64,000 nt of DNA, taken from assembly GCA_030390025.1 (NCBI GenBank), contig CM059431.1:137208001-137272000 (forward strand), in the 5' to 3' direction. How positions within the stretch are numbered: position 1 is the stretch's first letter; every line of letters starts with the position of its first letter. Source of the stretch: Squalus acanthias (Eukaryota). Under the pieces are notes generated by a model that saw only the letters and a list, made by a program, of their open reading frames with translations, searched no databases and was not told the origin of the DNA. The translations under genes and the position numbers were made by a program. Shown here one piece after another: positions 17,301 to 54,347 of the stretch.

Positions 17301-18289
17301 AGATACGCGTTGAAACCCCTTATAAAACTGTCAGGATCCTGACACAATGTGATAATCCATACAAACCTGGAAGGATCCTGATACACTGTGAAACAACATA
17401 TTCACCTGGCAGGTCCTGAAAAGCTGTGAAACCACATGCAGACCTGGTAGGATCCTGATGCACTGTAAGACACCATATCACCTGGCAGGATCCTGATACA
17501 CTGTGAAACCGCATACACACCAGGCAGCATCTGGAAACACTGTGAAACCCCATACTCACCTGGTCGGATCCATATATACTGTGAAACCCCATGCACACCT
17601 GACAGGATCCTAATACACTGCGAAACCACATACAAACCTGGCAGGATCCTGGTACTCTGTGATACACCATACACACCTGGCAGAATCTCGATGCTCTGTG
17701 AAACCCCATACACACCTGGCAGGATACTGATACACAGTGAAACCGCATATACACCTGGCAGTATTCCGATACACTGTTTAACCCCGTACACACGTGTCAG
17801 GATGCTGAGACACTGTGAAACCCCATACACACCTGGCAGGTTCATGATAAACTGTGAAACACCATACACACCTGGCATGAACCAGATACACTGTGAAACC
17901 CCATACACACTTGGCAGGATCTCGAGGCAGTGTGAAACTCCATAGACATCTGGCAGGATCCTGGTACAGTGTGAAACCGCATACACAACAGGCAGGATCC
18001 TGACACACTGTGAAACCCCATATAGACCTGGAAGGATCCTGATATACTGTGCAACCCCATGCACACCTGGTAGGATCCTGATACACGGATAAACACCATA
18101 CAAACCTGGCAATATCCAGATACACTGTGAAACCACCTATAAACCTGGCAGGATCGTGATACATTGTGACACCACATTCACACCTGGTAGAAACCTGATA
18201 AACTGTGAAACCCCATACACACCTGGAAGGATCAAGGTACACTGTGAAATTCCATACACATCTGATAAGATCGATATACACAGTGAAAC
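8373..18289. repeat. Satellite A, 39-bp tandem repeat (right block, ~254 units)
   Basis: Same consensus as 1-5503. Near-consensus cores at ~12500-13300 and ~15900-16750; ends abruptly at ...CAGTGAAACG. Confidence 0.97.
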
Positions 18290-22100: not shown

Positions 22101-22272
22101 TGTACATTCACAGTCTGTCCCTCTCTCATTGCCCACACTACCCCAGATAACCTGCCCACGGTCTGACACACTGACGGTGGAACCCATGTACATTCACAGT
22201 GTGTTCGTCTCTCAGTGCCAAACACTACCCCAGGTAACCTGCGCTGAACCTGACAAACTAACGGTGGAACAT

Positions 22273-32900: not shown

Positions 32901-35332
32901 GGGAAACTTCAGTACATTCACAGTTAGTCCCTGTCCCAGTGCCCACAATACCCAGATAATCTGCCCAGGACCTGGCACACTAACGTTGGATCTTCTGTAC
33001 ATTTACAGTCTATCGCGCTTCCATAGCAAACTTCCCCAGATAACCTGCCCAGGATCTGACACACTAATGGTGGAAATTCTGTACATTCACTGTCATCCCT
33101 CACGCAGTGCCCACACTAGCACAGATAACATGCCCAGGACCTGACAAACTAAAGGGGCAACTCCTGTACATTCACAGTCAGTCTCCCTCCCAGTGCCAAC
33201 ACTACCCTAGATAAACTGGCCAAGGTCTCATACACTAACGGTGGAACTTCTGTACATTCACAGTCTGACCCTCTCCCAGTGTCCGCACTACTCCAGATAA
33301 CCTACCCAGGACCTGACATACTAACGGTGGAACTTTTGTAAATTCACAGTCTGTCGCTCTCCCAGTGCCCACAGTCCCCCAGATAACCTTCTCAGGACCT
33401 GATTCACTAACGGTGGAACTATTGTACATTCACATTCTGTCCATCCCCCAGTGCCCACACCAGCCCAGATAACCTGCCCAAGGTCTGACACACTAACGTT
33501 GGAACTTCTGTCCATTCACAGTCTGTCCTCTCCCAGTGACCACGCTACCCCAGATAACCTGGCCAAGGTTGAAACTTTGTCCATTCACTATTTGTCCCTC
33601 TCCCCGTGCACACACTACCCCAGATAATCTGCCCAGGACCATACACACTAACTGTGGAACTTCTGTACATTCATAGTCTGTCTTTTCTCAGTGCCCACAC
33701 TACCCCAGATAACCTGCCCAGGACCAGACACACTAACTGTGGAACTTCTGTACATTCACTGTCTGTCCCTCTCCCATTGCCCACACTACCCCAGATAACC
33801 TGCCCAAGGTCTCACACACTAACGGTGGAACTTCTGTACATTCACAGTCTGTCCCTCTACCATTGCCCACACTGCCCCAGATAACCTGCCCAAGGTCTCA
33901 CACACGCACAGTGGAACCTCTGCACATTTACAGTTAGTCCCTCTCCCAGTGCCCACACTACCTAGATAATCTGCCCATGACCTGGCACAGTCTACCGCCC
34001 TTCCATAGCAAACTGCCCCAGAAAACCTGCCCAGGATCTGACACACTAATGGTGGAACTTCTGTACATTCACTCTCATCTCTCAGGCAGTGCCCACACTA
34101 GCCCAGATAACATGCCCCGGACCTGACACACGAAAGGGGCAACTCCTGTACATTCACAGTCAGTCTCCCTCCCAGTGCCAACACTACCCTAGATAAACTG
34201 ACCAAGGTCTCACAAACAACGGTGGAACTTCTGTACATTCACAGTCTGACCCTCTCCCAGTGTCCGCACTACTCCAGATAACCTACCCAGGACCTGACAT
34301 ACTAACGGTGGAACTTTTGTAAATTCACAGTCTTTCGCTCTCCCAGTGCCCACACTGGCCCAGAAAAACTGCCCAGGTTCTGAAACACTAACGGTGGAAG
34401 TTCTGTACTATCAAAGTCTGTCACTCTCCCAGTGCGCACACTACCCCAGATTACCTGCCCAAGGTCTGACACACTAACGTTGGAACTTCTGTCCATCCAC
34501 AGTCTGTCCCTCTCCCCGTGCCCACACTACCCCAGATAATCTGCCCAGGAGCAGACACACTAACGGTGGAACTTCTGTACATTCATAGTCTGTCTCTTTC
34601 CCAGTGCCCACACTATCCTAGATAAGCTGCCCAGGACCTGACACACTAACGTAGGATCTTCAGTACATTCACAGTCTGTCGTTCTCCCAGTGCTTACACT
34701 ACCCTGACTAACCTGCCCAGGACCTGACACACTAACGGTAGATCTTCTGTACATCCACAGTCTGCCACTCACCCAGTGCCCAGAGTAACCCTGAAAGCCT
34801 GCCCAAGGAGGAACTTCTGTAAATTCACAGTATGTCCATCTCCCAGTGCCCAAACTACCCCAGATAACCTGCCGAGCACCAGACACATTAACGATCAAAC
34901 TTCTGTCCATTCACAGTCTGTGCCTCTCCCAGTGCCCACACTAACACAGATAACCTGCCGAGGACCTGACACACTAACGGTGGAACTTCTGTCCATTCAC
35001 AGTCTGTCCCTCTCTCAATGCACACAGTAACCTAGATAACCTGCCCAGGATCTGACACACTGACGGTGGAACATCTGTCCATTCACAGACTGTCCCTCTC
35101 CCAGTTCCCACACGACCCAATATAACCTGCCCAAGACTTGGCACACTAACGGTGGTAGGTCAGTACATTCATAGTCTTTTCCCTCTCCGAGTGCCCACAA
35201 TTTCCCAGATCACCAGGTCAGGATCTGACACACTAACGGTGGATCTTGTGTACTTTAACAATCTGTCCCTCTCCCAGTGCACACACTAACCTGACACACT
35301 AACGGTGGAACTTCTGTCCATTCACAGTCTGT

Positions 35333-35683
35333 ACACTAGACGCAGGAAGAATGTTCCTGATGGTCGGAGAGTCCAGAACCATGGGGTCATAATCTAAGGA
35401 TAAGGGTTAAGCCATTTAGGACAGAAATGAGGAAGAATTTCTTCACCCAGAGAGTGGTGAACCTGTGGAATTCTCTACCACAGAAGGTAGTTGAGGCCAA
35501 GTCATTAAATATATTCAAGAATGAGTTAGATATATTTCTTAAAGCTAAAGGTATCAAGGGATATGGGGAGAAGGCAGGTACAGGGTACTGAGATTGGATG
35601 ATCAGCCATGATCTCATCGAATGGCGGAGCAGGCTCGATGGGCCGCATGGCATACACCTGCTCCTATCTTCTATGATTCTCTG
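35333..35683 (+). mobile_element. Short CR1 3' fragment in satellite B
   Basis: Encodes ...FFTQRVVNLWNSLPQK...GYGEKAGTGY* plus the 3' UTR hairpin and a CTATGATTCT tail. No TSD; about 27 bp of the satellite unit is missing at the site. Confidence 0.92.
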
Positions 35684-37705
35684 CTAACCAGCCCAGGTCC
35701 AGCAAACTAACGGTGGAGCATCTGTACTTTCATAGAATGTCTCTCTCCCAGTGCCCACACTAACCCAGGTAACTTGTAAATGACCAGACACAATAACGGT
35801 GGAACATCTGCACATTTACAATCTGTCCAATTCCTAGTGCCCAAAATAACCCAGATCATCGGCCCAGGATCTGACACACTTACGGTGGAACTTCTGTCCA
35901 TTCACAGTCTGTCCCTATCCCAGTGCCCACACTACACCAGAAAACCTGCCCAGAACCTGACAAAATAACGGTGGAACTTCTGTGCATTCACAGTCTGTCC
36001 CTATCCCAGTGCCCACACTACACCAGAAAACCTGCCCAGGACCTGACAAAATAACGGTGGAACTTCTGTGCATTCACAGTCTGTCCCTATCCCAGTGCCC
36101 ACACTACACCAGAAAACCTGCCCAGGACCTGACAAAATAACGGTGCAAAATCTGGCCATACTCAGTTTGTCCCTCTCCCAGTGCCCACACCAACCCAGAA
36201 AACCTGCCCAGGACTTGACACACTAACGGTGGAACTTCTGTGCATTCACAGTCTGTCCCTCTCCCAGTGCCCACACTACACCAGAAAACCTGCCCAGGAC
36301 CTGACAAAATAACGGTGCAAAATCTGGCCATACTCAGTTTGTCCCTCTCCCAGTGCCCACACTAACCCAGATAACCTGCCCAGGAGCTGACACATTAACG
36401 GTGGAACTTCTGTCCATTCACAGTCTGTCCCTCTCCCAGTGCCCACACTACCACAGATAACCTACCGAGGACCTGACACACTAACGGTGGAACTTAGTAC
36501 ATTCACAGTCTGTCCCTCTCCCAGTGCCCACATTACCCCAGATAACCTGCCGAGGACCTGACACACTAACGGTGGAACCTCTGTACATTCACAGTCTATC
36601 CCTCTCCCAGTGCCCACACTAACCCAGATAACCTGCCCAGGAACTGACACACTAACGGTGGAACATCTGTACATTCACAGTCTGTCCCTCTCCCAGTGCC
36701 CACACTAACCCAGATAACCTGCCCAGGAACTGACACACTAATGATGCAACTTCTGTCCATTCAAAGACTGTCACTCCCCCAGTGTTCACACCACCTCAGA
36801 TAACCTGGCCAACACCTGACACACTAACGGTGGAACTTCTGTCCATTCACAGTCTGTCCCTCTCCCAGTGCCCACACTACCCTAGATAAGCTGCCCAAGG
36901 TCTGACAAACTAACGGTAGAACTTCTGTCCATTCACAGTCTTTCCCTTTCCCAGTGCCCACACTCACCCAGAAAACCTGCCCAGGACCTGACACACTAAC
37001 AGTGGAACATCTGTCCATTCACAATCTGTCCCTCTCCCAGTTACCACACGACACAAGCTAACCTGCCCAGGTCCTAACACACTAACGGTGGAACTTCTGT
37101 ACATTCACAGTCTGCCCCTCTCCCAGTGCCCACACGACCCCAGATAACCTGCCCAAGGTATGACACACTAACGGTGGAACTTCTTTACTTTCACAGTCTG
37201 TTCATCTCCCAGTGCGCACATTACCACAGATAACCTGCCGAAGGCCTGATAAAGTAACCGTGGATCTTCTGCACTTTGTCCCTCTCTGTGAGCAACCAAT
37301 CCCGTTTTCCTTGTCTGCAGAAGGAACCATCACTGACGGTTTCAGAGATTGATCGACTAGAACCTCTACAGTCGTATAAATAGGATCATGTGTGTATTTA
37401 TAATGAGGTTTCTATAGCACAGGGCAGGCCGGATAGTATTAAACATCAGAGGGAAAATATCACCTTCATAGAACTCTCCATGTTCAGTAAATATTAGAAT
37501 CAAGTCAGGATTTGAAACTTTTCTCCGTCATTGTTCAATTTAAACCTTGGTTTCCATTAAATGAGTTTTCATTTCTACCGGCACCTCAATTGAAACTGTG
37601 AATTAAATCTTACAAGATTTTACTGAATAGCGAAATGTTATTTAGAGGCTGCTTTTTGAAAATAAACTGACATTGAGAATCACTTTCTTTCTATTGTAAT
37701 TGTAG

Positions 37706-39443
37706 ATGTTCAACAGAAACACAAGGAAACACTCCGGGTACAAACTGAAACACTGAGAGTGAACACTTTCCTAATAAAGGAGAAGGTTAAGGTTTTCCAG
37801 CTGGTTGATCGATACGCTGAGCTAACGATCATTTCCACTGTTCGAGATCAGACACTTTCAGAACATGAACTGCTGGCAAAAGGCCGAGACCATGACGAGT
37901 GGAGAGAGAAACATTTCCAGAGAGAGATGGAAAAAATCCGAACTGATCAATTTTTCCAAAGCAGTTTTTCCCAGAGAAAATTCAAATCTGGGAGTTCAGC
38001 AGCAGTGAGCGGAGTCGCGGGGATTGGAAAAACAACAATGGTACAAAAGATTGTTCATGACTGGGCCACTGGGAAAATATACCCACACTTTCAATTTGTT
38101 TTCTGCTTTAAATTCCGGGATTTGAACGCTATTAACTGTAGAATAAACCTGAGGAATCTGTTACTGGATCTGTATCCTTACCTTGGGAATATTCTGGGAG
38201 AGCTCTGGAAGAACCCACAGGGATTGCTGTTTATCTTCGATGGATTGGATGAATTCAAGGACAGGATCGACTTTACTGACAATCGGAGAAAAACAGAACC
38301 TCAGCACAGGTGCACAGATCCTGAAGACTGGTGTGAAGTGTCTGACATTGTGTACAGTTTAATACAGCACAAGCTGCTCCCAGGATGTTCAGTGCTAGTG
38401 ACCAGCCGCCCCACTGCATTAAATTTATTGGAAAAGGCTGAATTCAGTTTCAGGGCTGAAATCCTGGGATTTGTTGGTGAAGAACGGAAGGAATATTTCA
38501 ACAAGATTTTTGAAGATCAGACGGTGGCAGCAGGTGTTTTCAAACATGTGGAGGAGAACGCGATCCTGTACACCATGTGCTACAAACCTTCCAACTGCTG
38601 GATCCTCGGTCTGTCACTGGGTCCCTTCTTTGCACAAAAAGACAGGAATCAGCATCGAGTTCCCAAGACCATCACCCAACTATGCTCCTGCTATATTTAC
38701 AACATTCTGAAAAACCATGGCCGAGAGATTGAAAGCCCCCGTGATGTATTACTGAAGCTTGGTGAGATGGGCTTCACAGGAGTCTCCGAGAAGAAGAGTG
38801 TGTTTAGAAATGGAGATTTGATCAAGTACAATCTGCAACCTTCCCAATTCCTGTCTGGGTTCATGATGGAACTTTTGGAGAGAGATGATTCTGCCCAGAG
38901 CGTGGTGTACACATTCCCACACCTCACCATCCAAGAGTTTTTAGCCGCACTCGCACAATTCCTGACTCCAGATCCTGGGGACATCCTGAAGTTCCTCAAA
39001 GAAGCCCACAGCGAGGAAGATGGGCGATTTGAGATATTTCTCCGTTTTGTTGCTGGTCTCTCCTCCCCACAGGCAGCTCGGCCCCTGGAGGAGTTTCTGG
39101 GTCCATTTCTTCATCAAACTACCTGCCGAGTGATTGACTGGGTGAAGGAGAAGGTTGAAGGACAGATTGGGAACACAGAGAGTGAAACTGGCAAAAGGAA
39201 CCTCCTGAACACATTTCACTACCTGTTTGAGTCTCAGAATAAAGCACTGGCTCAGGCCACAGTGGGATCTGTGGAAAAACTTACATTTAATGAATTGGCA
39301 TTGACCCCAATTGACTGTGCAGTCCTGTCTCATGTTATTGGACTCTGTGATACAATAAAACTTCTCGATCTGGGAGTCTGCTCCATTCAGTGTGAAGGAC
39401 TCCAGCGGCTGGGACCCGTACTGCACAAATGCCGGGTTTTGGG
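37706..39443 (+). CDS. NLR (NACHT-LRR, NLRC3/NLRP3-like family) large NACHT exon
   Basis: Acceptor TTGTAG| (AG 37704-37705), phase 1, giving DVQQKHKETLRVQTETLRVN. Walker A SGVAGIGKTT, Walker B LLFIFDGLDE, sensor-1 VLVTSRP, winged-helix FPHLTIQEFLAA, then the first LRR. Donor GG|GTAACT; the track's TAA at 39445 lies in the donor site. Confidence 0.93.
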
Positions 39444-40136
39444 GTAACTGTTTATTTATGTCTAACTGTTGTGCGAATTGTCGAACAGTCACGGATTGTG
39501 TTGTTGCTCCGCAATAATGGGAAAGAAACAGTTCAGTTAAACCAGAGAGAAGCAGATTCGACACAAATATGACCAATAATAAGAGGCTCGGTTAGTAATT
39601 CCCTAAGTACTGGAGAATCTAAAATGGATCCTTGTGAACAAGTAGGGCTTTTACAGTCTATTTCAGATCAGCAAATAGAGGTCACTGAAAGTCTGATAAT
39701 TAATTACAATAAATCATATTTAATAAAGTTGGACAGCGGAATGTAAACATAAAATATAATCCGGCAGTGAAGATAAAATTAATTTAAAACATTTTCCACA
39801 ACCACCATTTCAACTGGAAACAGGAGAGAAACCCGAGTTTAAATCACTAACAGTTCGATATTTACTCCAATACCGTGCAGGCTGTGTCTTGTCGAGGGAG
39901 ACGTTCCCTGGATTGGGAATAGTGGGGAATCTGAAATTCTTTCATCTGTAAATACAACTATACATAGTCCTGAACACTGAGTAAAGATTGTTATTCAGGA
40001 TCTTAAATCTGCCGGTAAAAGGGTCTCAATCTAACGTGTTGTGGGGTATTTGCCCCGGAGTACAGACACACACCGGCCAGCGGTGAGCCCTCGCACACAG
40101 AGGGCGGCTCCTGGGTAAACCGGGGGCAGTGAAACC

Positions 40137-40204
40137 GGGAATTCCCCATAATCAGCCCCCTGTGTATGAGGCCCCGCTCGGGGAGGGAACTTCCGAAAAT
40201 TCCC
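40137..40204. promoter_or_regulatory. Cluster of NF-kB-type motifs in the NLR intron
   Basis: GGGAATTCCC (40137-40146) and GGGAACTTCC (40185-40194) match GGGRNNYYCC. GAAAATTCCC (40195-40204) is a 1-mismatch site on the - strand. Motif match only. Confidence 0.4.
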
Positions 40205-40338
40205 CCAAAACTATCTGGCCAGTTACACCTGAAATAAATGTAGAGCCAGTTTAATCGGATGAAAGTGAGAGACTCCCCTTCCCTATAAACTAGGAGCACA
40301 GGGATATTTAAAACTTGTAACGGGACAGAATAAATTCT

Positions 40339-41656
40339 ATTGCTGCTATTGACAAACATTCACTATAAGCCCTCTGACTCCCACAGCTACCTGGAATGCA
40401 CTTCCTCCCAACTCGCTTCCTGTAAGGACGCTGGCCCATTCTCCCAGTTTTTCCGCCTCAGCCGCATCTGCTCTGACGATGCCACGTTCCATACTAGTGC
40501 ATCATACATGTCTTCCTTATTCCTCAACCGAGGATTCCCCATTACCGTTGGTGACACGGCTCTTGACCGTGTCCATTCTATTTCCCGCACTTCTGCTTTC
40601 ACCCCTTCCCCTCCCTCCCAGAACCATGATATGGTTCCCCTTGTCCTCACCTTTCACCCCACCAGCCTCCGCATTCAACGGATCATCCTCCACCAATTCC
40701 GCCATGTCCAGCGTGATCCCACCACCAAACACACCTTCCCCCCTCCCCTTTCAGCAGTCCGAAGTGCCCGCTCCCTCCACGACAACCTGGTCCACTCCTC
40801 TATCACCCCCAGTACCCCTTCCCCTTCTCACAGCACCTTCCCATGCAAGCGCAGGAGATGCAACACCTGATCTTTTCCATCTTTCCTTCCCATTGTCCAA
40901 GGGCCGCAAAAACGCCTTCCAGGTAAAACAGCGATTTACTTGTACTTCTTGCAATTTAGTACACTGTATTCGCTGCTCACGATGCGGTCTCCTCTACATT
41001 GGGGAGACCAAACGCAGATTGGGTGACCGCTTTGTGGAACACATCCTTTCAGTCCGTAAGTGTGACCCCGAGCTTCTGGTCGCCTATCACTTTAATTCTC
41101 TGCTCCACTCCCACTCTGATCTCGGCATTCTCGGCCTCTTACACTCTTCCAACAAAGTACAACATAAGATCGAGGAACAGCACCTCATCTTTCAATTAAG
41201 CCCTATACAACCTTCTCGACTCAACATCGAGTTCGACAATTTCAGACGATAAACTCGGCCACTATTTTATTTTTCTCATTATCGTTTTTCCTTTTCCCTT
41301 TTATTTCTCTCACATGACAGCTGTTGATGATTCTGCCAGTGCCATTCACACCTCATCTAGATTAATTTGTGTTTCTTAACTTGTCCCATTACCGTCACCT
41401 TTTGCTTGCACCATCATCCCTTTTGTCTTTTAATCTCTCCTGTCTTCCACCCTATCACAGACCTTCCCTTTTGCTCTTTCCTCCGCCCCCCCCCCACCTT
41501 TCCCGGCCCCTACACGTGCTTCAAAATCTGTTACATCTGTAACGTTTTCCAGTTCTGACGAAGGGTCTTCGACCTGAAACATTAACTCTGTTTCTCTCTC
41601 TATAGATGCTGCATGACCTGCTGGGTATTTCCAACATTTTCTATTTTTATTTCAGC
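40339..41656 (+). mobile_element. Penelope-like element (PLE) 3' part: RT C-terminus + GIY-YIG endonuclease + terminal repeat
   Basis: HYKPSDSHSYL..PFSQFFRLSRICSD (PLE RT C-terminal region), then a frameshift near 40865. Continues as FTCTSCNLVHCIRCSRCGLLYIGETKRRLGDRFVEH (GIY-YIG), followed by a pyrimidine-rich tract and a hammerhead motif. TSD ATAAATTCT at 40330-40338 and 41657-41665. Confidence 0.9.
41551..41587 (+). ncRNA. Minimal type I hammerhead ribozyme of the PLE (stem III mutated)
   Basis: AGUU-CUGACGA-A-GGGUC(UUC)GACCU-GAAA-C-A-UU-AACU. Stem I is AGUU/AACU, stem II is 5 bp and the core boxes are intact; ACAU replaces the palindromic ACGU. Confidence 0.75.
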
Positions 41657-42602
41657 ATAAATTCTCCGTGTTATATAAAATCCTGGGGGACGGATTTTAC
41701 AGCAGCAGTTAGCGTTTCACAATATAACTCACCCGAGATATTATACAGATTAATATAATGCACAGAGTATAAAGTACAGGGACTCACCGCTTTATCATTT
41801 AATTCTGGGAAAATCGCCCCATTCCCATAAAATCCGGGATTGAAGGAGCAACAGAAATGAAACAAATTTCTAAAACTTGACGGAGCCGGTCACTGAGCTC
41901 CAGGAGGCTAATTCTGATGATCAGGGAATGAGACCGGACTGAGGGACTTTTAAAGGCTTCACACAGACAGCACTTTATTTAATAAATACATTTACTGACA
42001 GTACCTGAATATGTGGGCAGTTGAACAGAGTAAGATTCATTCCCTGTGACAGAAATAGGGGGGGGGGATTTCGCGGGGGTTCAGCGGCGCGATCAATGGC
42101 GGGTCGGGTGGGAAACTGGATTTTTCCCCAGCGTGTCGGGGCCCCACAGTCAACCCGCCGCCACCCGCCTTTTCCAAATGTCGGGTCTGTCAGCGCTGAG
42201 CAGACCTGACATGCAGTGGCGGGGGAGGCAATTCAGGTCATTATTATCTCGGAACAAAGGATTAACAACTATTTCAGCTCAACTTCAGAGTTTACCAGGT
42301 CGCGCACAGGGTCCACGCTGCTCGGGGAACACATCACTTAAGCAGGGCGGGAGTTGAATGGCCATGGAATCATCTCATTACTTGACAGCTGGGAATGTGT
42401 TATAAAAGCTCCCATCTCACAGCTGTTCACTTTCCATGCATAGAAGCTGTTGTTTACTGCATTTTGAAGACAAATTGAGCTTTATGCAGGTTGCCAGTGT
42501 TTGGAGCAAACTCTCTATCCAGTGTTCCCTCAATGGAACAACCTCTCTCACCATTAACAGATTGCTTCTGTCATCTCAAGTTCACCTGCCATCTATTACA
42601 TC

Positions 42603-42710
42603 TTCATCACCTGCCATCTTCACCTGAGGAAGGAGCAAATCGATAGCTCCGAAAGCTTGTGATTTCAAATAAAACTGTTGGACTATAACCTGGTGTTGTG
42701 CGACCTCTCA
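42603..42710 (+). mobile_element. ~108-bp hammerhead-containing mini-insertion (PLE terminal-repeat-like) with 12-bp TSD
   Basis: Direct repeat ATCTATTACATC at 42591-42602 and 42711-42722 flanks a hammerhead plus TTTCAAATAAAACTGTTGGACTATAACCTGGTGTTGTG. Confidence 0.75.
42620..42662 (+). ncRNA. Minimal type I hammerhead ribozyme, intact core
   Basis: UCAC-CUGAGGA-A-GGAGC(AAAUCGAUA)GCUCC-GAAA-G-C-UU-GUGA. Stem I UCAC/GUGA, stem II 5 bp, palindromic stem III (AAGCUU); predicted cleavage after U42658. Confidence 0.82.
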
Positions 42711-43472
42711 ATCTATTACATCAGCATGGGTATGGTTTATACTGTCTTATCTTGGGCCTCAGAGTCCCACCACCATCAGCCCCAATACCAGCAGCACCAG
42801 GCACACCAGCAGCAACAACAGCAACCTGATCCGCATCTCCTAATGATGCACAGCACAGAGGGCATCAACACCCGACCACATTGCTGACCGGGACGCCAGA
42901 GATGGCCTCACCATGGCCAGATTTTCTTCACTTGATGCTGCACGCCCTGGATGCCACATGATGCGCTAGGTTTCCACCAGCCCACACCAACCACATAAAG
43001 CATCCCTACAATGCCCAAACCATTCCTGTCACACTCATCAGCATTGCGGGGGGTAACATTATGTCTCACCATTCACTGCAACTCACTAAGCCACATCCAA
43101 ATGTGCACACAAATCTGTCGAAGAACGGAAAGTGTTGAAAATAAAGATTTCACTGTTTGACAGCACATTAACAGAAACGTCACATGAATATTGGCACAAA
43201 TGCCAAAATAAATGTGCGCGTCATCAAATGACGTCATCACAACCGTTTCCTCTAATTCTCCAGAGCGAGGCCTCACCCGACCCGCCAACGACCCCGGCCG
43301 CACCCGACCCGCCACCGACCCCGGCCGCACTCGACCCGCCCAGGGAGGGAAATCGCGGGGGGAAACCGGGTTATTAATTTCCTGAAGTACTTTCAGTGAT
43401 TGCTGTAATATCAGAGAGAGAAAAATATCAGTTCCAGGCTTTGATTCAGTTTGTTTCTCTGTTTGTGTTCAG

Positions 43473-43559
43473 ACTGAGCGGCAATAAACTGGGAGATTCA
43501 GGAGTGAAACTACTGTCTGCGGCTCTGAGGAACCCGGACTGTAAAATACAGGAACTGCG
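43473..43559 (+). CDS. NLR LRR exon (87 bp)
   Basis: TTGTGTTCAG| ... CG|GTAAGT, phase 2-2. Encodes LSGNKLGDSGVKLLSAALRNPDCKIQEL, an RI-like LRR. Confidence 0.92.
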
Positions 43560-43700
43560 GTAAGTACCAGACTGTGTGAGATTGTGTTTATAATAACTGG
43601 GTATCTAACACTGTACAATATTATTAGTATCAGTAATAGTGTTATTAATAATCTCTGGGGATTGACTCTGATTCCTGTTATTTCTCTTTGTGATCCCCAG

Positions 43701-43868
43701 GCTGTGTGATGTCGGTCTCACAGATTCTTGTGCCGAGGATCTCGCCTCCGCTCTCAGTACAAACCTCTCACTGACGGTTCTTTGGCTGGCATTAAACTCC
43801 TTCACAGACCGATCTGTCCCCGCTCTCAGCCGCCTCATACTGACGTGCAGGAGTCTGGAGCAGATGTG
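43701..43868 (+). CDS. NLR LRR exon (168 bp)
   Basis: CCCCAG| ... TG|GTGAGT, phase 2-2. Encodes LCDVGLTDSCAEDLASALSTNLSLTVLWLALNSFTDRSVPALSRLILTCRSLEQM. Confidence 0.92.
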
Positions 43869-44040
43869 GTGAGTGTTTGTGTAAATGTTTAATGTAATAT
43901 GTAAAATATAAATGGGATCCAGTCACATTTATGGGTAATATTTGTCTGTAATTATTATTGAAATATTAACCCCAGTCTCCCTGTGATTTACACTGTTGTT
44001 CAATCTGTTTATTTCCTGTTTAATCTTTAATCTGTTTCAG

Positions 44041-44137
44041 GCTGGGGGCGAATCACTTCAGTTCAAACGGAGGGAAACGGCTGAAGTCTCTGCAGGGAAC
44101 AAGACCCGGACTGACTGTGTCTGTGAGAACATTTTAA
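44041..44137 (+). CDS. NLR terminal coding exon
   Basis: TCTGTTTCAG| acceptor, phase 2. Encodes (W)LGANHFSSNGGKRLKSLQGTRPGLTVSVRTF*, TAA at 44135-44137. Confidence 0.85.
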
Positions 44138-44434
44138 TTGATGACGTCACTGCTCTCATTATTTGAACATTTTTGTCCAATGATTTGATTTTAATTTAAT
44201 TTCACGGTTTCCAGCTCGAGCTGAGCTCGGGTCATCACCCATTGTGAGGTCAGAGGCCCAGCCACAGGGTTACGTGACGCAGCCGCCCGGCCCCACAGCG
44301 CTGCTACTGCAGGATATCCGGGGCTGAATGTTCCCCAATGGGGCACTGGGGAAATGCACAGACAGGAAGGGCCCAGGGTAGGGCTCAGTCTGGGCTGCAG
44401 TGGGACACTGACACTTGCACTCAGTATTCCTGGG

Positions 44435-45000
44435 AGTCTCTCTATGTGAGGAGTCGGACTGTGTAACAATTGCCCCTGTGTACAGTGCGTGTCTCTCCCA
44501 GTGAGGTGTCAGACTCTGTAACCAGTGTCCCTGTGTACAGTGTGTGTCTTTCCCAGTGAGGAGTCAGTCTCTGTAACAAGTGTCCCAGTGTAGAGTGTGT
44601 GTCTCTCCCAGTGTGGAGTCAGACTCTGTAACAAGTGTCCCTGTGTACAGTGTGTGTCTCTCCCAGTGAGAAGTCAGACTCTGTCCCAAGTGTCCCTGTG
44701 TAGAGTGTGTGTCTCTCCCAGTGAGGAGTCGGACTCTGTAACAAGTGTCCCTGTATACAGCATGTGTCTCTCCCAGTGAGGAGTCGGACTCTGTAACAAG
44801 TGTCAATGTGTACAGTTTGCGTCTCTCCCAGTGAGGTATCGGACTCTGTCTGTAACAAGTGTCCCTGTGTATAATGTGTGTCTCTCCCAGTGAGCAGTCG
44901 GACTCTATAACAAGTGTCCATGTGAACAGTGCGAGTCTCTCCCATTGAGGAGTCAGACTCTGTAACAAGATCGCTCTGAAGAGCTTATGTCTCTCCCAGA
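44435..45000. repeat. Satellite C, 55-bp tandem repeat (left block, ~10 units)
   Basis: CAGACTCTGTAACAAGTGTCCCTGTGTACAGTGTGTGTCTCTCCCAGTGAGGAGT. Confidence 0.93.
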
Positions 45001-45009
45001 GCGAACATT

Positions 45010-47132
45010 GAAAAATATATAAACATAGAAAAATTGGAGCAGGAGTAGGCCATTCGGCCCTTCGAGCCTGCTCCGCCATTCAATATGATCATAGCTGATC
45101 CTCTATCTCAATACCATATTCCCGCTCCCTTCCCATACCCCTTGATCCCTTCTGTTTCTAGAAATCTATCTATCTCCTTCTTAAATATATTCAGTGGCAT
45201 AGCCTCCCCAGCCTTCTGTGGTAGAGAATTCCACAGGTTCACCACCCTCTGAGTGAAGAATGTTCTCCTCATCTCAGTCTTAAATGTCCTACCCCGTATC
45301 CTGAGACTGTAACCTCTCGTTCTAGGCACCCCAGCCAGTGGAAACATCCTCCTTGCATCTAGTCTGTCTAGCCTGTCAGAATTTTATACGATTCAATGAG
45401 ATCCCCTCTCATTCTTCTAAACTCTAGTGAATACAGGCCTAGTCGAGTCAATCTCTCTCTCTACGACAGTCCTGACATCCCAGGAATCAGTCTGGTGAAC
45501 ATCCGCTGCTCTCCCTCTATGGCAGGTATATAATTTCTTAGGTAAAGAGACCAAAACTGCACACAGTACTCCAGGTGTGGTCTCACTAAGGCCCTGTATA
45601 ACTGTAGTAAGACATCCTTGCTCCTGTACTCAAATCCTCTTGCAATGAAAGCCAACATACCATTTCCTTTCATAAATGCTTGCATCACCTGCATGTTTGA
45701 CTTCAGTGACTGGTGTACAAGGACACCCAGCTCCCTTTGTACATCAACATTTCCCAATCCCATGTGCTTTAATTTTGCACACTAAATTCTTATGTGGGAC
45801 TTTATAAAAGACCTTCTGAAAATCCAAATACACCACATCCACTGGTTCTACCTTATCTATTCCACCAGTTACATCCACAAAAAACTCCATTAGGTTTGTC
45901 AAACACGATTTCCCTTTCATAAATCCATGCTGACTTTGTCTAATCCCGTTGATATTTCCTAAGTGCCCTGGTATCACATCCTTTATAATGGACTCCAGCA
46001 TTTCCTTCCTACTTATGTAAGGCTAACCGGTCTGTAGTTCCCTATTTTTTATCTCTCACTCCTTTTTGTAACTAGTGGGGTTACATTTGCCACCCTCCAA
46101 TCTGCAGGAACTGTTGCATAATCTATAGAATTTTGGAAGTTGACAACCAATGCATCCACTATTTCCATGGCTACCTCTTTTACTGCTCCAGGATGCAGAT
46201 TATCAGTCCCTGGGTATTTATCGGCTTTCAGTCCCATTAATTTCTCCAGCACTATTTTTTTTTTACTAATCATCATTTCCTTTAATTCCTCCTTCTCACT
46301 AGACCCTTGCTTCATTAACATTTCATGGAATTTATTTGTGTCCTCTTCCGTGAGGACAGAACCAAAGTATTTGTTTAATTGATACACCATTTCCTTGTTC
46401 CCCATTATAAAGTCTCCCGTTTCTGATTGTAAGGGATCTATATTTGTCTTCATTAATCTTTTTCTTTTTACATACTTGTAGAAGCTTTAACAGTCCGCTT
46501 TTATGTTCCTTGCAAGTTTACACTCATGCTCTATTTTCCCCCTCTTAATCAATCTCTTGGTCCTTTTTTGCTAAACTCTCAACTAAACCCAATCCTCAGG
46601 CTTGGTACGTTTTCTGGCAAATTTATATGACTCCTCTTTGGATCTAATACAATCCTTCATTTCTTTTGTTAGCCATGCTTTTACTTTTGTGTTTTTGCTC
46701 CAGAATGGAATGTATAACTGTTGCAATTCATGCATTCGTTCCTTAAATGTTAGCCATTACGAATCCACCGTTATGCCTTTTAATGAAGCTCCCCAATCTA
46801 TCACAGCCAACTCACTCCTCATACCTTCGTATTTTCATTTATTACATTTAGGACCCTAGATTCGGATTGTACTTCTTCACTTTCCATCTTAATGAAGAAC
46901 TCAATCTTGTTGTGAATACTTTTCCCAAAAGGACCCCGCACAACAAGATTATTAATTAAACCCTTCACATTGCACAATGCACAACCTAGGATAGCCTGTT
47001 CCCTAGTTAGCTTCTCAACGTACTGATCTAAATAAACATCTCGTAAACACTGCAGGAATTCATCCTCTAGAGTATTATTGCTAATTTAGTTTGGACAGTC
47101 TATATGCAGATTAATCTCACCCATGATACCCG
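45010..47132 (-). mobile_element. Decayed CR1 LINE in satellite C with internal RT deletion
   Basis: 3' hairpin/tail at 45020-45080. Fragments FFTQRVVNLWNSLP, RPHLEYCVQFWS, YLDFQKVFYKVPH and KADKYPGTDNLHP, with EN IMG.NLHI near 47100-47127. The QGSVLGP/FADD segment is absent. Confidence 0.93.
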
Positions 47133-47138
47133 TGAGCA

Positions 47139-50100
47139 ATCGGACTCTGCAACAAGTGTCCCTTTGTACAGTGTGTGTCTCTCCCAGTGAGGAGTCGGAC
47201 TCTGTAACAAGTGTCACTGTGTACAATGTGTGTTTCTCCCAGTGAGGAGTAAGAACCTGTAACAAGTGTCCCTGTGTACAGTTTGTGTCTCCCCCAGTGA
47301 GGAGTCAGATTCTGTCCCAAGTGTCCCTGTGTACAGTGTCTGTCTCTCCCAGTGAGGAGTGGCACTCTGTAACAAGTGTCCCTGTGTACAGTGTGTGTCT
47401 CTCCCAGTGAGGTGTCAGACTCTGTAACAAGTGTCTCTATGTACAGTGTGTGTCTCTCTCAGTGAGGTGTCAGACTCTGTAACAAGTGTCACTGTGTACA
47501 GTGTGTGTCTCTCTCAGTGAGGTGTCAGGCTCTGTAACAAGTGTCTCTGTGTACAGTGAGTGTCTCTCCCAGTGAGGAGTCGCACTCTGTAACAAGTGTC
47601 CCTGTGTACTGTGTGTGTCTCTCCGACTGAGGAGTCGAACTGTGTAACAATTGTCCCAGTATAGAGTGCGTGTCTCTCCCAGTGAGGAGTCAGACTCTGT
47701 AACAAGTGTCCCTGTGTACAGTGTGTGTCTCTCCCAGTGAGGAGTCAGAATCTGTAACAAGTGTCCCTGTGTACAGTGTCTGTCTCTCCCAGTGAGGAGT
47801 CAGACTCTGTAACAAGTGTCCCTGTGTACAGTGTCTGTGTCTCTCCCAGTGAGGAGTCGGACTCTGTAACAAGTGTCCCTGTGTACAGTGTGTGTCTCTC
47901 CCAGTGAGGAGTCTGACTCTGTAACAAGTGTCCCTGTGTACAGTGTGTGTCTCCCAGTGAGGAGTCAGACTCTGTAACAAGTGTCCCTGTGTACAGTTTG
48001 TGTCTCTCCCAGTGAGGAGTCAGACTCTGTAACAAGTGTCCCTGTGTACAGTGTCTGTGTCTCTCCCAGTGAGGAGTCGGACTCTGTAACAAGTGTCCCT
48101 GTGTACAGTGTCTGTCTCTCCCAGTGAGGAGTCAGACTCTGTAACAACTGTCCCTGTGTACAGTGTGTGTCTCTCCCAGTGAGGAGTCAGACTCTGTAAC
48201 AAGTGTCCCTGTGTACAGTGTGTGTCTCTCCCAGTGAGGAGTCTGACTCTGTAACAAGTGTCCCTGTGTACAGTGTGTGTCTCCCAGTGAGGAGTCAGAC
48301 TCTGTAACAAGTGTCCCTGTGTACAGTTTGTGTCTCTCCCAATGAGGAGTCAGACTCTGTAACAAGTGGCCCTGTGTACATTGTGTGTCTCTCCCAGTGA
48401 GGAGTCTGACTCTGTAACAAGTGTCCCTGTGTACAGTGTGTGTCTCCCAGTGAGGAGTCAGACTCTGTAACAAGTGTCCCTGTGTACAGTGTGTGTCTCT
48501 CCCAGTGAGGAGTCAGACTCTGTAACAAGGGTCCCTGTGTACAGTGTGTGTCTCTCCCAGTGAGGAGTCTGACTCTGTAACAAGTGTACCTGTGTACAGT
48601 GTGTGTCTCCCAGTGAGGAGTCAGACTCTGTAACAAGTGTCCCTGTGTACAGTGTGTCTCTAACAGTGAGGAGTCGGACTCTGTAACAAGTGTCCCTGTG
48701 TACAGTGTGTGTCTCTCCCAGTGAGGAGTAAGAACCTGTAACAAGTGTCCCTGTGTACAGTTTGTGTCTCCCCCAGTGAGGAGTCAGATTCTGTCCCAAG
48801 TGTCCCTGTGTACAGTGTCTGTCTCTCCCAGTGAGGAGTGGCACTCTGTAACAAGTGTCCCTGTGTACAGTGTGTGTCTCTCCCAGTGAGGTGTCAGACT
48901 CTGTAACAAGTGTCTCTATGTACAGTGTGTGTCTCTCTCAGTGAGGTGTCAGACTCTGTAACAAGTGTCACTGTGTACAGTGTGTGTCTCTCTCAGTGAG
49001 GTGTCAGGCTCTGTAACAAGTGTCTCTGTGTACAGTGTGTGTCTCTCCCAGTGAGGAGTCGCACTCTGTAACAAGTGTCCCTGTGTACTGTGTGTGTCTC
49101 TCCGACTGAGGAGTCGAACTGTGTAACAATTGTCCCAGTATAGAGTGCGTGTCTCTCCCAGTGAGGAGTCAGACTCTGTAACAAGTGTCCCTGTGTACAG
49201 TGTGTGTCTCTCCCAGTGAGGAGTCAGAATCTGTAACAAGTGTCCCTGTGTACAGTGTCTGTCTCTCCCAGTGAGGAGTCAGACTCTGCAACAAGTGTCC
49301 CTGTGTACAGTGTCTGTGTCTCTCCCAGTGAGGAGTCGGACTCTGTAACAAGTGTCCCTGTGTACAGTGTGTGTCTCTCCCAGTGAGGAGTCTGACTCTG
49401 TAACAAGTGTCCCTGTGTACAGTGTGTGTCTCTCCCAGTGAGGAGTCAGACTCTGTAACAAGTGTCCCTGTGTACAGTTTGTGTCTCTCCCAGTGAGGAG
49501 TCAGACTCTGTAACAAGTGTCCCTGTGTACAGTGTCTGTGTCTCTCCCAGTGAGGAGTCGGACTCTGTAACAAGTGTCCCTGTGTACAGTGTCTGTCTCT
49601 CCCAGTGAGGAGTCAGACTCTGTAACAACTGTCCCTGTGTACAGTGTGTGTCTCTCCCAGTGAGGAGTCAGACACTGTAACAAGTGTCCCTGTGTACAGT
49701 GTGTGTCTCTCCCAGTGAGGAGTCTGACTCTGTAACAAGTGTCCCTGTGTACAGTGTGTGTCTCCCAGTGAGGAGTCAGACTCTGTAACAAGTGTCCCTG
49801 TGTACAGTTTGTGTCTCTCCCAATGAGGAGTCAGACTCTGTAACAAGTGGCCCTGTGTACATTGTGTGTCTCTCCCAGTGAGGAGTCTGACTCTGTAACA
49901 AGTGTCCCTGTGTACAGTGTGTGTCTCCCAGTGAGGAGTCAGACTCTGTAACAAGTGTCCCTGTGTACAGTGTGTGTCTCTCCCAGTGAGGAGTCAGACT
50001 CTGTAACAAGGGTCCCTGTGTACAGTGTGTGTCTCTCCCAGTGAGGAGTCTGACTCTGTAACAAGTGTACCTGTGTACAGTGTGTGTCTCCCAGTGAGGA

Positions 50101-53100
50101 GTCAGACTCTGTAACAAGTGTCCCTGTGTACAGTGTGTCTCTAACAGTGAGGAGTCGGACTCTGTAACAAGTGTCCCTGTGTACAGTGTGTGTCTCTCCC
50201 AGTGAGGAGTCAGAATCTGTAACAAGTGTCCCTGTGCACAGTTTGTGTCTCCCCCAGTGAGGAGTCAGATTCTGTCCCAAGTGTCCCTGTGTACAGTGTG
50301 TGTCTCCCAGTGAGGAGTCAGACTCTGTAACAAGTGTCCCTGTGTACAGTGTGTCTCTCCCAGTGAGGAGTCGGACTCTGTAACAAGTGTCCCTGTGTAC
50401 AGTGTGTGTCTCTCCCAGTGAGGTGTCAGACTCTGTAACAAGTGTCTCTATGTACAGTGTGTGTCTCTCTCAGTGAGGTGTCAGACTCTGTAACAAGTGT
50501 AACTGTGTACAGTGTGTGTCTCTCTCAGTGAGGTGTCAGACTCTGTAACAAGTGTCTCTGTGTACAGTGTGTGTCTCTCCCAGTGAGGAGTCGCACTCCG
50601 TAACAAGTGTCCCTGTGCACTGTGTGTGTCTCTCCGACTGAGGAGTCGAACTCTGTAACAATTGTCCCAGTATAGAGTGCGTGCCTCTCCCAGTGAGGAG
50701 TCAGACTCTGTAACAAGTGTCCCTGTGTACAGTGTGTGTCTCTCCCAGTGAGGAGTCAGATTCTGTAACAAGTGTCCCTGTGTACAATGTGTGTCTCTCC
50801 CAGTGAGGAGTCAGACTCTGTAACAAGTGTCCCTGTGTACAGTGTCTGTGTCTCTCCCAGTGAGGAGTCGGACTCTGTAACAACTGTCCCTGTGTACAGT
50901 GTGTGTCTCTCCCAGTGAGGAGTCAGACTCTGTAACAAGTGCCCCTGTGTACAGAGCATGTCTCTGCCAGTTAGGAGTCAGACTCTGTAACAAGTGTCCC
51001 TGTGTACAGTGTCTGTGTCTCTCCCAGTGAGGAGTCGGATTCTTTAACAGGTGTCCCTGTGTACAGTGTGTCTCTCCCAGTGAGGAGTCGGATTCAGTAA
51101 CAAGTGTCCCTGTGTATAGTGTGTGTCTCTCCCAGTGAGGAGTCAGACTCTGTAACAAGTGTCCCTGTGTACAGTGTCTGTGTCTCTCCCAGTGTGGAGT
51201 CGGATTCTATAACAAGTGTCCCTGTGTACAGTGTGTGTCTCTCCCACTGAGGTGTCAGGCTCTGTAACAAGTGTCCCTGTGTACAGTGTGTGTCTCGCAC
51301 TGAGGAGTTAGACTCTGTAACAAGTGTCCCTGTGTACAGTGCGTGTCTCTCCCAGTTAGGAGTCAGACTCTGTAACAAGTGTCACTGTGTATAGTGTGTG
51401 TCTCTCCCAGTGAGGAGTCAGATTCTGTAACAAGTGTCCCTGTGTACAGTGTGTCTCTCTCCCAGTGAGGAGTCAGATTCTGTAACAAGTATCCCTGTGT
51501 ACAGTGTCTGTGTCTCTCCCAGTGAGGAGTCAGACTCTGTAACAAGTGTCCCTGTGTACAGTGTGTGTCTCCCAGTGAGGATTCGGACTCTGTAACAAGT
51601 GTCCCTGTGTACAGTGTGTGTCTCTCCCAGTGAGGAGTCAGACTCTGTAACAAGTATCCCTGTGTACAGTGTGTGTCTCTCCCAGTGAGGAGTCAGACTA
51701 TGTAAAAAGTGTCCCTGTGTACAGTGAGTGTCTCTCCCTGTGAGGAGTCAGACTCTGTAACAAGTGTCCCTGTGTACAGTGTGTGTCTCTCCCAGTGAGG
51801 AGTCGGACTCTGTAACAAGTGTCCCTGTGTACAGTGTGTGTCTCCCAGTGAGGAGTCAGACTCTGTAACAAGTGTCCCTGTGTACAGTTTGTGTCTCTCC
51901 CAGTGAGGAGTCAGACTCTGTAACAAGTGCCCCTGTGTACAGTGTCTGTGTCTCTCCCAGTGAGGAGTCGGACTCTGTAACAACTGTCCCTGTGTACAGT
52001 GTGTGTCTCTCCCAGTGAGGAGTCAGACTCTGTAACAAGTGCCCCTGTGTACAGTGCATGTCTCTCCCAGTTAGGAGTCAGACTCTGTAACAAGTGTCCC
52101 TGTGTACAGTGTCTGTGTCTCTCCCAGTCAGGAGTCAGACTCTGTAACAAGTGTCCCTGTGTACAGTGTGAGTCTCTCCCAGTGAGGAGTCAGACTCTGT
52201 AACAAGTGTCCCTGTGTACAGTGTGTGTCTCTCCCCAGTGAGGAGTCGGACTCTGTAACAAGTGCCCCTGTGTACAATGTGTGTCTCTCCCAGTGAGGAG
52301 TCAGACTCTGTAACAAGTGTCCCTGTGTACAGTGTGTTTCTCTCCCAGTGAGGAGTCAGACTCTGTAACAAGTATCCCTGTGTACAGTGTGTGTCTCTCC
52401 CAGTGAGGAGTCAGACTCTGTAACAAGTGTCCCTGTGTACAGTGCATGTCTCTCCCAGTTAGGAGTCAGACTCTGTAACAAGTGTCCCTGTGTACAGTGT
52501 CTGTGTCTCTCCCAGTGAGGAGTCGGATTCTGTAACAGGTGTCCCTGTGTACAGTGTGTCTCTCCCAGTGAGGAGTCGGATTCAGTAACAAGTGTCCCTG
52601 TGTATAGTGTGTGTCTCTCCCAGTGAGGAGTCAGACTCTGTAACAAGTGTCCCTGTGTACAGTGTCTGTGTCTCTCCCAGTGTGGAGTCGGATTCTATAA
52701 CAAGTGTCCCTGTGTACAGTGTGTGTCTCTCCCACTGAGGTGTCAGGCTCTGTAACAAGTGTCCCTTTGTACAGTGTGTGTCTCCCAGTGAGGAGTTACA
52801 CTCTGTAACAAGTGTCCCTGTGTACAGTGCGTGTCTCTCCCAGTTAGGAGTCAGACTCTGTAACAAGTGTCCCTGTGTATAGTGTGTGTCTCTCCCAGTG
52901 AGGAGTCAGACTTTGTAACTAGTGTCCCTGTGTACAGTGTGTCTCTCTCCCAGTGAGGAGTCAGACTCTGTAACAAGTATCCCTGTGTACAATGTCTGTG
53001 TCTCTCCCAGTGAGGAGTCAGACTCTGTAACAAGTGTCCCTGTGTACAGTGTGTGTCTCCCAGTGAGTAGTCGGACTCTGTAACAAGTGTCCCTGTGTAC

Positions 53101-54347
53101 AGTGTGTGTCTCTCCCAGTGAGGAGTCAGACTCTGTAACAAGTGTCCCTGTGTACAGTGTGTGTCTCTCCCAGTGAGGAGTCAGACTATGTAACAAGTGT
53201 CCCTGTGTACAGTGTGTGTCTCTCCCAGTGAGGAGTCAGACTCTGTAACAAGTGTCCCTGTGTACAGTGTGTGTCTCTCCCAGTGAGGAGTCTGACTCTG
53301 TAACAAGTGTCCCTGTGTACAGTGTGTGTCTCCCAGTGAGGAGTCAGACTCTGTAACAAGTGTCCCTGTGTACAGTTTGTGTCTCTCCCAGTCAGGAGTC
53401 AGACTCTGTAACAAGTGGCCCTGTGTACATTGTGTGTCTCTCCCAGTGAGGAGTCTGACTCTGTAACAAGTGTCCCTGTGTTCAGTGTGTGTCTCCCAGT
53501 GAGGAGTCAGACTCTGTAACAAGTGTCCCTATGTACAGTGTGTGTCTCTCCCAGGGAGGAGTCTGACTCTGTAACAAGTGTCCCTGTGTACAGTGTATCT
53601 CTCCCAGTGAGGAGTCGGACTCTGTAACAAGTGTCCCTGTGTACAGTGTGTGTCTCTCCCAGTGAGGAGTCAGAATCTGTAACAAGTGTCCCTGTGTACA
53701 GTGTGTCTCTCCCAGTGAGGAGTCAGAATCTGTAACAAGTTTCCCTGTGTACAGTGTGTGTCTCACCCAGTGAGGAGTCCACTCTGTAACAAGTGTCCCT
53801 GTGGACAGTGTGTGTCTCTCCCAGTGAGGAGTCAGACTCTGTAAGAAGTTTCCCTGTGTACAGCAAGTGTCTCTCCCAGTGCGGAGTCAGACTCTGTAAC
53901 AAGTGTCCCTGTGTACAGTGTGTGTCTCTCCCAGTGAGCAGTCCACTCTGTAACAAGTGTCCCTGTGTACAGTATGTGTCTCTCCCAGTGAGGAGTCGGA
54001 CTCTGTAACAAGTGTCCCGGTGTACAGTGTGCGTCTCTCCCAGTGAGGAGTCAGACTCTGTAACAAGTGTCCCTGTGTACAGTGTGTGTCTCTCCCAGTG
54101 AGGAGTCTGACTCTGTAACAAGTGTCCCTGTGTACAGTGTGTGTCTCTCCCCAGTGAGGAGGCGGACTCTGTAACAAGTGCCCCTGTGTACAATGTGTGT
54201 CTCTCCCAGTGAGGAGTCAGACTCTGTAACAAGTGTCCCTGTGTACAGTGTGTTTCTCTCCCAGTGAGGAGTCAGACTCTGTAACAAGTGTCCCTGTGTA
54301 CAGTGTGTGTCTCTCCCAGTGAGGAGTCAGGCTCTGTAACAAGTGTC
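47139..54347. repeat. Satellite C, 55-bp tandem repeat (~131 units; 51-57 bp variants by dinucleotide slippage)
   Basis: Highly homogeneous consensus. ORF offsets are 55/110, with higher-order offsets ~1480-1530. Confidence 0.97.

What the first reader, a model, noticed from the sequence alone, without database searches (positions are those of the whole stretch)
42591..42722. A ~108-bp mobile unit that is little more than an intact hammerhead ribozyme, sense-oriented in an NLR intron
Seen: a perfect 12-bp direct repeat (ATCTATTACATC) flanks 108 bp carrying a complete type I hammerhead core. The core is CUGAGGA + extra A, stem II GGAGC/GCUCC, GAAA, palindromic AAGCUU and stem I UCAC/GUGA, followed by an AATAAA-containing tail. 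The 5' junction re-copies target sequence (TCACCTGCCATCT at 42582 and 42607), and the target shares TCACCTG with the ribozyme start. Known: Penelope-like elements and retrozymes carry minimal hammerheads whose palindromic stem III favours dimeric cleavage. Inference: this is either an extremely truncated PLE insertion or a tiny non-autonomous ribozyme element. It could affect the host pre-mRNA by cleavage or cryptic polyadenylation between the NACHT and LRR exons, which would give an LRR-less NLR.
Basis: partly seen in the sequence, partly recalled or inferred. Interest (0 to 1): 0.7.

Follow-up and report, generated by a model that had tools for sequence, protein, structure and literature searches.

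The report
Tiny Penelope retroelement end with hammerhead
A very short, fairly young insertion of a jumping gene's end piece, carrying the small hammerhead ribozyme motif typical of Penelope-like elements, sits in an immune-gene intron and is probably an inert leftover of a kind already described.

Summary
The 12-bp repeat is a true target-site duplication: other copies of the host repeat lack the insert and carry the 12-mer once. The minimal hammerhead core is intact, with the cut predicted after 42658. Correction: the mobile part is about 91 bp (42620-42710); 42603-42619 is re-copied target DNA. [quoted passage not shown] Best reading (0.8): a tail-less end module of a PLE. No link to an RT/GIY-YIG frame could be shown, because no genome is held. 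A host effect is unlikely: there is no dimer partner, the active fold costs 5-7 kcal/mol in context, its AATAAA is 1 of 8 in the intron, and the gene splices in frame on paper. Still open: the 5' end sits at the ribozyme's upstream edge, so such copies may be run-off cDNAs, not random truncations. The scan noted similar insertions earlier on other DNA.

The parts
42591..42602 (.). Left copy of the 12-bp target-site duplication
   Evidence: uninterrupted host-repeat copies continue after 42602 with letters like those of window 42723 onward in 84 (X1), 23 (X6) and 16 (X16) records
42603..42619 (+). 17-nt junction filler copied from target 42581-42594 with one triplet repeated; not part of the mobile family (42618-19 could belong to either)
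   Evidence: 0 of 5000 random draws from this intron gave a 13-nt exact match; X6 records align from 42618, X1 records from 42622
42620..42662 (+). Minimal type I hammerhead: helix I 4 bp, core, extra A, helix II 5 bp with 9-nt loop, self-complementary AGCU in place of helix III, predicted cut 42658|42659
   Evidence: self-cleavage untested
42663..42710 (+). Conserved module downstream of the ribozyme, with AATAAA at 42668; the copy ends just before the extension that other copies carry
   Evidence: Summed contig depth peaks at 42665-42702 in X1, X6 and X16; loose ends behind 42708-42712
42711..42722 (.). Right copy of the target-site duplication (12 of 12 identical)
42380..42920 (.). Older multi-copy interspersed repeat that received the insertion (true ends not mapped; class not determined)
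   Evidence: Records laid in all bins of both flanks; in 15 of the 38 listed flank rows more than 90% of X1 depth differs from the window, against 0 of 2 listed rows inside the element (40 of 61 rows shown)
40339..41656 (+). Second, unrelated 5'-truncated PLE in the same intron: broken frames with GIY-YIG remnant, minimal hammerhead 41551-41587, 9-bp duplication ATAAATTCT
   Evidence: GIY-YIG clusters at 0.96; PF01541 E 0.037, below cut-off
37706..39443 (+). NACHT / NOD2_WH / NLRC4_HD2 exon of the host NLR gene
   Evidence: Pfam E 8.6e-37, 5.6e-11, 1.4e-17; donor GT at 39444
43473..43559 (+). First LRR-like exon after the intron; two more exons at 43701-43868 and from 44041
   Evidence: LRR_6 E 0.041, below cut-off; three GT-AG introns join in frame and add 117 residues

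Best explanation
This is the end module (pseudo-LTR terminus) of an abundant endonuclease-positive Penelope-like retroelement, retrotransposed as a 91-bp piece. Shown: a 12-bp duplication at an AT-rich site in an older repeat, a templated 5' filler, an intact minimal hammerhead, and a 3' end one base before an extension that other copies carry. Inferred: the PLE endonuclease made staggered nicks 12 nt apart; reverse transcription began at the inner of two internal start sites (hence no tail) on an uncleaved RNA (the copy spans the cut site); it stopped at the upstream edge of the ribozyme; the cDNA end then switched to the target strand at shared TCACCTG/TCT letters, copied 14 nt of target with a slip, and was sealed by repair. 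The hammerhead is intact because the copy is young and close to its family, not because the host selects it. At this locus it most likely does not cut and the intron is spliced normally.
For: Motif matches the published PLE minimal hammerhead in core, extra nucleotide, G10.1-C11.1 and palindrome (PMC4209133), a paper that says most such motifs are single and probably come from truncated PLEs. Empty-site continuation in 84, 23 and 16 records. Shared extension behind 42708-42712 in 21 (X1), 13 (X6) and 5 (X21) records, agreement 0.52-0.70, median 24-46 letters; published tail 30-40 bp, optional (PMC8557442; PMC3846280), explained by two RT start sites on unprocessed RNA (PMC11167929). The consensus of 4 X1 records upstream of 42622 begins with the reverse complement of that extension, and 1 contig folds back at 42618, as in inverted PLE units. 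Loop II length variants and related cores exist. A second PLE in the intron has the same order, hammerhead then 73 nt to its end, against 52 nt here. Active fold costs 2.3 kcal/mol in the bare element but 4.9-6.7 with filler and flanks.
Against: No RT or GIY-YIG frame was linked to this particular family: no genome is held and pattern scans found no related locus. Upstream loose ends did not give one shared pseudo-LTR continuation (4 different strings in rows of 1-10 records; 23 of 410 rows shown), which an independent short element would also give. Rfam gives no hammerhead match. The 12-bp duplication is longer than the 8-10 bp reported for Adineta PLEs. No listed record spans this insertion, so the locus itself has no independent confirmation.
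Confidence: 0.8

Rival explanations
1. An independent non-autonomous ribozyme element (SINE-like, or a monomer shed from a non-LTR retrozyme array) of about 90-130 nt, transcribed from its own source loci and moved in trans by PLE proteins.
For: Summed depth is concentrated on 42646-42702 and falls at both sides; upstream strings differ between rows; one X1 contig returns from 42702 to 42659, the first base after the predicted cut. Non-LTR retrozymes derived from pseudo-LTRs, with monomers, are reported in vertebrates including one chondrichthyan (10.64898/2026.07.22.740005).
Against: No tandem copy in the window. The copy spans the cut site, so it is not a cut-to-cut unit. The 3' end varies between copies. 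The motif is the minimal PLE type, not the canonical type of the retrozyme repeats (PMC7229834). The depth fall at the 5' side is partly due to loop II variants and to the window's own filler.
Confidence: 0.12
2. Whatever its origin, the insert acts on the host gene: cleavage or polyadenylation in the intron gives an LRR-less NLR.
For: Sense orientation, intact core, AATAAA at 42668 with the most T/GT-rich downstream stretch of the 8 hexamers in the intron. The unspliced NACHT exon would end at a stop right after the donor, giving 579 residues from 37708. Conserved intronic hammerheads exist in amniotes (PMC6155905).
Against: Single minimal motifs did not cleave in vitro (PMC4209133); the Anolis PLE hammerhead needed the PLE protein (PMC11167929); 1 of 9 Xenopus dimers cleaved. 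No partner here: the other hammerhead in the intron cannot pair with it (+1.5 kcal/mol). Helix I probability is at most 0.003 in context. Five AATAAA hexamers lie upstream in the same intron. The insert is young and lies in another repeat. No transcript evidence was obtained either way.
Confidence: 0.05
3. Chance motif or assembly artefact.
For: No Rfam hit; folding z-scores are unremarkable, -1.38 to +1.45; no listed record spans the junctions.
Against: 0 strict descriptor hits in 6.4 Mb of shuffles; the module is present in all 4 runs laid, and the target is seen empty in 3 of them.
Confidence: 0.02

Closest known systems
Minimal hammerheads of metazoan Penelope-like elements (Cervera and De la Pena 2014, PMC4209133)
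   Same: Type I core, extra nucleotide before helix II, G10.1-C11.1, short helix I, palindrome in place of helix III, single genomic motif
   Different: This family was not found in the paper's searchable supplement (1 of its files not searched); helix II is 5 bp against 7-8 in Schistosoma; link to an ORF not shown here
Truncated insertion units of EN+ PLEs with optional tail (PMC8557442, PMC3846280) and the Anolis Poseidon element PAc (PMC11167929)
   Same: Duplication, end shortly downstream of the hammerhead, optional extension, microhomology at the 5' junction, template not cleaved at the ribozyme
   Different: Only about 91 bp; 12-bp duplication against 8-10 bp in Adineta; no ATG inside the piece, whereas the PAc frame starts in stem II; clade not determined
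Non-LTR retrozymes of animals (PMC7229834; bioRxiv 10.64898/2026.07.22.740005)
   Same: Non-coding, type I hammerhead, related to PLE pseudo-LTRs
   Different: Single copy, not tandem; minimal, not canonical motif; not a cut-to-cut unit; no circular RNA evidence
Conserved intronic hammerheads of amniotes, e.g. RECK (as described in PMC6155905)
   Same: Sense-strand type I hammerhead in an intron
   Different: Those are conserved across species; this one is a young insertion with intact duplication inside another repeat and lacks a stable helix III

Membership tests
PLE-type minimal hammerhead | Conserved core CUGANGA, GAAA, UH | tested here: met
   42624-30, 42651-54, 42657-58
PLE-type minimal hammerhead | [quoted passage not shown] | tested here: met
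   A42631; G42632-C42650; features from PMC4209133
PLE-type minimal hammerhead | Short helix I and palindromic helix III region | tested here: met
   4-bp helix I; AGCU self-duplex -2.5 kcal/mol
PLE-type minimal hammerhead | Self-cleavage as dimer or with protein help | not testable with these tools
   Needs a bench assay; folding suggests the core is sequestered in context
EN+ Penelope-like element | Terminal repeat linked to an RT plus GIY-YIG frame | not testable with these tools
   No genome held; collection scans gave no related locus
EN+ Penelope-like element | Target-site duplication at insertion | tested here: met
   12 of 12 identical; empty site in paralogous host copies in 3 of 4 runs
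EN+ Penelope-like element | Optional 30-40 bp tail beyond the end | tested here: met
   Absent here, present in related copies in 3 of 4 runs among the rows shown; full length not read, the tool prints 30 letters
EN+ Penelope-like element | Variable 5' truncation and inverted 5' copies | tested here: inconclusive
   1 fold-back contig and one 4-record row only; every copy must stop matching at the window's filler, so 5' end positions cannot be counted
Non-LTR retrozyme | Two or more tandem units each with a hammerhead | tested here: not met
   One copy in 64 kb
Non-LTR retrozyme | Canonical type I hammerhead with helix III and loop-loop contact | tested here: not met
   Minimal motif; no Rfam match
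Non-LTR retrozyme | Expressed as linear and circular RNA | not testable with these tools
   Only contigs of a run guessed to be RNA were laid
Domesticated intronic hammerhead | Conserved at the orthologous intron across species | tested here: inconclusive
   No listed record spans the insertion in 4 runs; a hole proves nothing

The most novel reading that the evidence does not exclude
These micro-insertions are not random truncations but a defined by-product of the PLE cycle. If the PLE transcript starts at the upstream edge of the hammerhead and reverse transcription starts internally at the 5'-proximal copy of the tail, the enzyme runs off the RNA's 5' end after 90-130 nt. That would seed the genome with near fixed-length, duplication-flanked hammerhead cassettes made from uncleaved RNA, map the transcript start in vivo, and show that the ribozyme is off during integration.
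Probability: 0.3. Interest if true: 0.45.

Novelty: new member of a known kind. Interest (0 to 1): 0.2.

Why it matters
As one insertion it matters little: thousands of single minimal hammerheads per genome from PLE remnants are on record (about 4,000 in coelacanth, 9,000 in Xenopus tropicalis; PMC4209133). It is a clean specimen of a PLE junction with an available empty site. If 5' ends cluster at the ribozyme's upstream edge genome-wide, such copies would be in vivo evidence on where PLE RNA starts and on the internal-initiation model of PMC11167929. An effect on the NLR transcript would be more surprising, but nothing found here supports it.

Tried and rejected
Whole-genome search: no genome held. 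Rfam: 4 unrelated sub-threshold matches in 40000-45000, 0 at gathering score in the window. Pattern scans: 0 in metagenome contigs twice, 0 in viral contigs, 2 bacterial contigs that match only 19-20 letters and are taken as chance. A family word was found in 0 papers and not in the searched supplements of PMC8557442 or PMC4209133 (one file not searched). 'Hammerhead ribozyme + Penelope + shark' gave 1 paper, where shark refers to the shape; one search listed 3 genome or transcriptome papers that I did not open. Free folding of the element is not better than shuffles. Summed contig depth was not used as copy number. X16 is only guessed to be RNA and contigs show no ends or strand, so it says nothing on transcription. 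X21 gave 40 laid reads of 10,085,944, many on the CAG-rich flank, too few for end statistics. Runs X15-X20 had small shares; only X16 was laid. A heterodimer between the two intron hammerheads was rejected. The first exon join used a donor two bases off and was redone. No protein homology search was run for this family because the piece has no usable open frame. Supplements of the bioRxiv preprint were not seen; they may list the chondrichthyan families and could name this one.

Full report
Observation. A descriptor for a minimal type I hammerhead gives one strict hit in the window, core at 42624, helix II 5 bp, helix I 4 bp, palindromic AGCU, cut after 42658, and 0 strict hits in 100 shuffled windows; I wrote the descriptor after seeing the motif. 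Rfam does not recognise it; my inference is that its models need a helix III. The insert lies on the sense strand of a 4029-bp intron (39444-43472) between a NACHT exon and three short downstream exons; the four exons join in frame through GT-AG introns. The LRR call rests on a weak Pfam match (E 0.041) and on the leucine pattern. That the genome is shark-like comes from earlier notes of the scan and from my recall of such repeats, not from a test.

The duplication is real. A 12-mer repeat at this spacing appears in 5.8% of 500 shuffled introns, so it is not proof alone. I laid 4 of the 21 listed public runs on 42380-42920: 10,763 of 51,360,340 records for X1, 1,831 of 2,581,556 for X6, 1,624 of 940,648 for X16 and 40 of 10,085,944 reads for X21. 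Records that follow the left flank stop matching after 42602 and continue with letters like those of window 42723 onward, in 84, 23 and 16 records (agreement 0.76-0.87). The target is thus a multi-copy repeat whose other copies hold the 12-mer once. These are paralogous empty sites, not the empty allele, and no listed record spans this insertion. In 15 of the 38 listed flank rows more than 90% of X1 depth differs from the window, against 0 of the 2 listed rows inside the element (17% and 8%); 40 of 61 rows were shown. The insert is therefore closer to its family than the host repeat is to its own, which fits a younger age.

The unit is shorter than stated. 42603-42619 equals target 42581-42594 with one triplet repeated; 0 of 5000 random draws from the intron gave such a match. 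Family records align only from 42618 or 42622. The mobile part is about 91 bp, from helix I to 42710.

It is an end piece of something longer. Behind 42708-42712, records of X1 (21), X6 (13) and X21 (5) continue into a shared extension with agreement of 0.52-0.70, so some copies carry it and others may not (23 of 410 loose-end rows shown). An optional 30-40 bp tail is a described mark of PLE insertions (PMC8557442, passages; PMC3846280, passages). PMC11167929 (parts 1-2 of 4 read) explains it by two internal start sites of reverse transcription on unprocessed RNA, downstream of the hammerhead. One 4-record row shows the reverse complement of the extension upstream of the ribozyme, and one contig folds back at 42618, as in inverted PLE units; these are thin. 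PMC4209133 (parts 1-2 of 4 read) defines the motif, reports thousands per genome, mostly single and probably from truncated PLEs, and found no cleavage by a single motif. The same intron holds an internal comparison: a 1.3-kb element at about 40339-41656 with a 9-bp duplication, broken frames with a GIY-YIG remnant and its own minimal hammerhead 73 nt from its end. It is another family, so it shows the pattern, not the parent.

What is not shown. I could not link this family to an RT/GIY-YIG frame: no genome is held and four pattern scans gave no related locus. Upstream of helix I the rows shown give four different strings in 1-10 records each, with no dominant continuation. That fits heterogeneous flanks at a preferred 5' boundary, but also several subfamilies or a bias against short anchors, and every copy must stop matching at the filler. 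An independent short element is therefore not excluded (0.12). It fails the retrozyme tests that could be run: no tandem unit and a minimal motif (PMC7229834, passages; bioRxiv 10.64898/2026.07.22.740005, parts 1-3 of 5). One X1 contig that returns from 42702 to 42659, the base after the cut, is the only hint of cut-defined units.

Effect on the host. Folded alone the 43-nt motif forms helices I and II (pair probabilities 0.65-1.0); with its neighbours helix I falls to 0.003 or less and a hairpin 42617-21/42626-30 takes up the core (0.55-0.95). The active-compatible fold costs 1.6 kcal/mol alone, 2.3 in the bare element and 4.9-6.7 with filler and flanks. These are equilibrium predictions; co-transcriptional folding and proteins are not modelled. 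No second copy lies in the window and the other hammerhead cannot pair with it. The AATAAA at 42668 is the sixth of 8 in the intron, although its downstream stretch is the most T/GT-rich by a crude count. No transcript data bear on the point. I put a host effect at 0.05.

Mechanism. Shown: duplication, filler, intact motif across the cut site, end before the optional extension. Inferred: staggered nicks by the PLE endonuclease, internal priming at the inner start site on uncleaved RNA, stop at the ribozyme's upstream edge, switch to the target strand at short shared letters, slip, repair. Whether the stop is random or marks the RNA's 5' end is open. PLE transcription starts inside the pseudo-LTR (PMC2377424, passages; PMC8557442), and in vitro the product length follows the template's 5' end, so run-off is plausible. 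An earlier unchecked note of this scan reports such clustering in another genome; this copy agrees with it but is one case.

Verdict. A real, tidy, young micro-insertion of a PLE-type end module: a new member of a known kind, interest 0.2. I found no paper on this family in the searches, which cover only an open-access library. The scan has noted similar insertions in this and other genomes.

Noticed in passing
window 40339-41656 (+): Second 5'-truncated Penelope-like element with 9-bp duplication, GIY-YIG remnant, a cysteine motif before it (Neptune-like by inference from PMC8557442) and a minimal hammerhead whose helix III letters are not palindromic.
   Followed up: partly
window 5480-8272 (+): A 930-codon open frame with endonuclease and RT domains, a LINE, interrupts a 39-bp satellite that spans 15-5479 and 8375-18260.
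   Followed up: no
window 19538-37271: An 86-bp satellite of about 17 kb directly upstream of the NACHT exon, broken by an RT fragment at 22648-23142; the 5' exons of the NLR gene were not located.
   Followed up: no
window 44446-54347: A 55-bp satellite, 91% matches in its main block, interrupted by about 2.1 kb of non-tandem sequence at 45000-47128.
   Followed up: no
window 42088-42110 and 43274-43296: A 23-nt inverted repeat (83%) brackets the host repeat, with a CAG-rich stretch and an ATG just after the insertion site; possibly a non-autonomous DNA transposon derivative, class untested.
   Followed up: no
window 42659-42702, run X1: One contig returns from 42702 to 42659, the first base after the predicted cut, and another from 42698 to 42680: possible partial tandem copies elsewhere.
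   Followed up: no
window 43473-44140: The NLR gene has only three short exons after NACHT (117 residues), so its LRR region is short even when fully spliced.
   Followed up: partly
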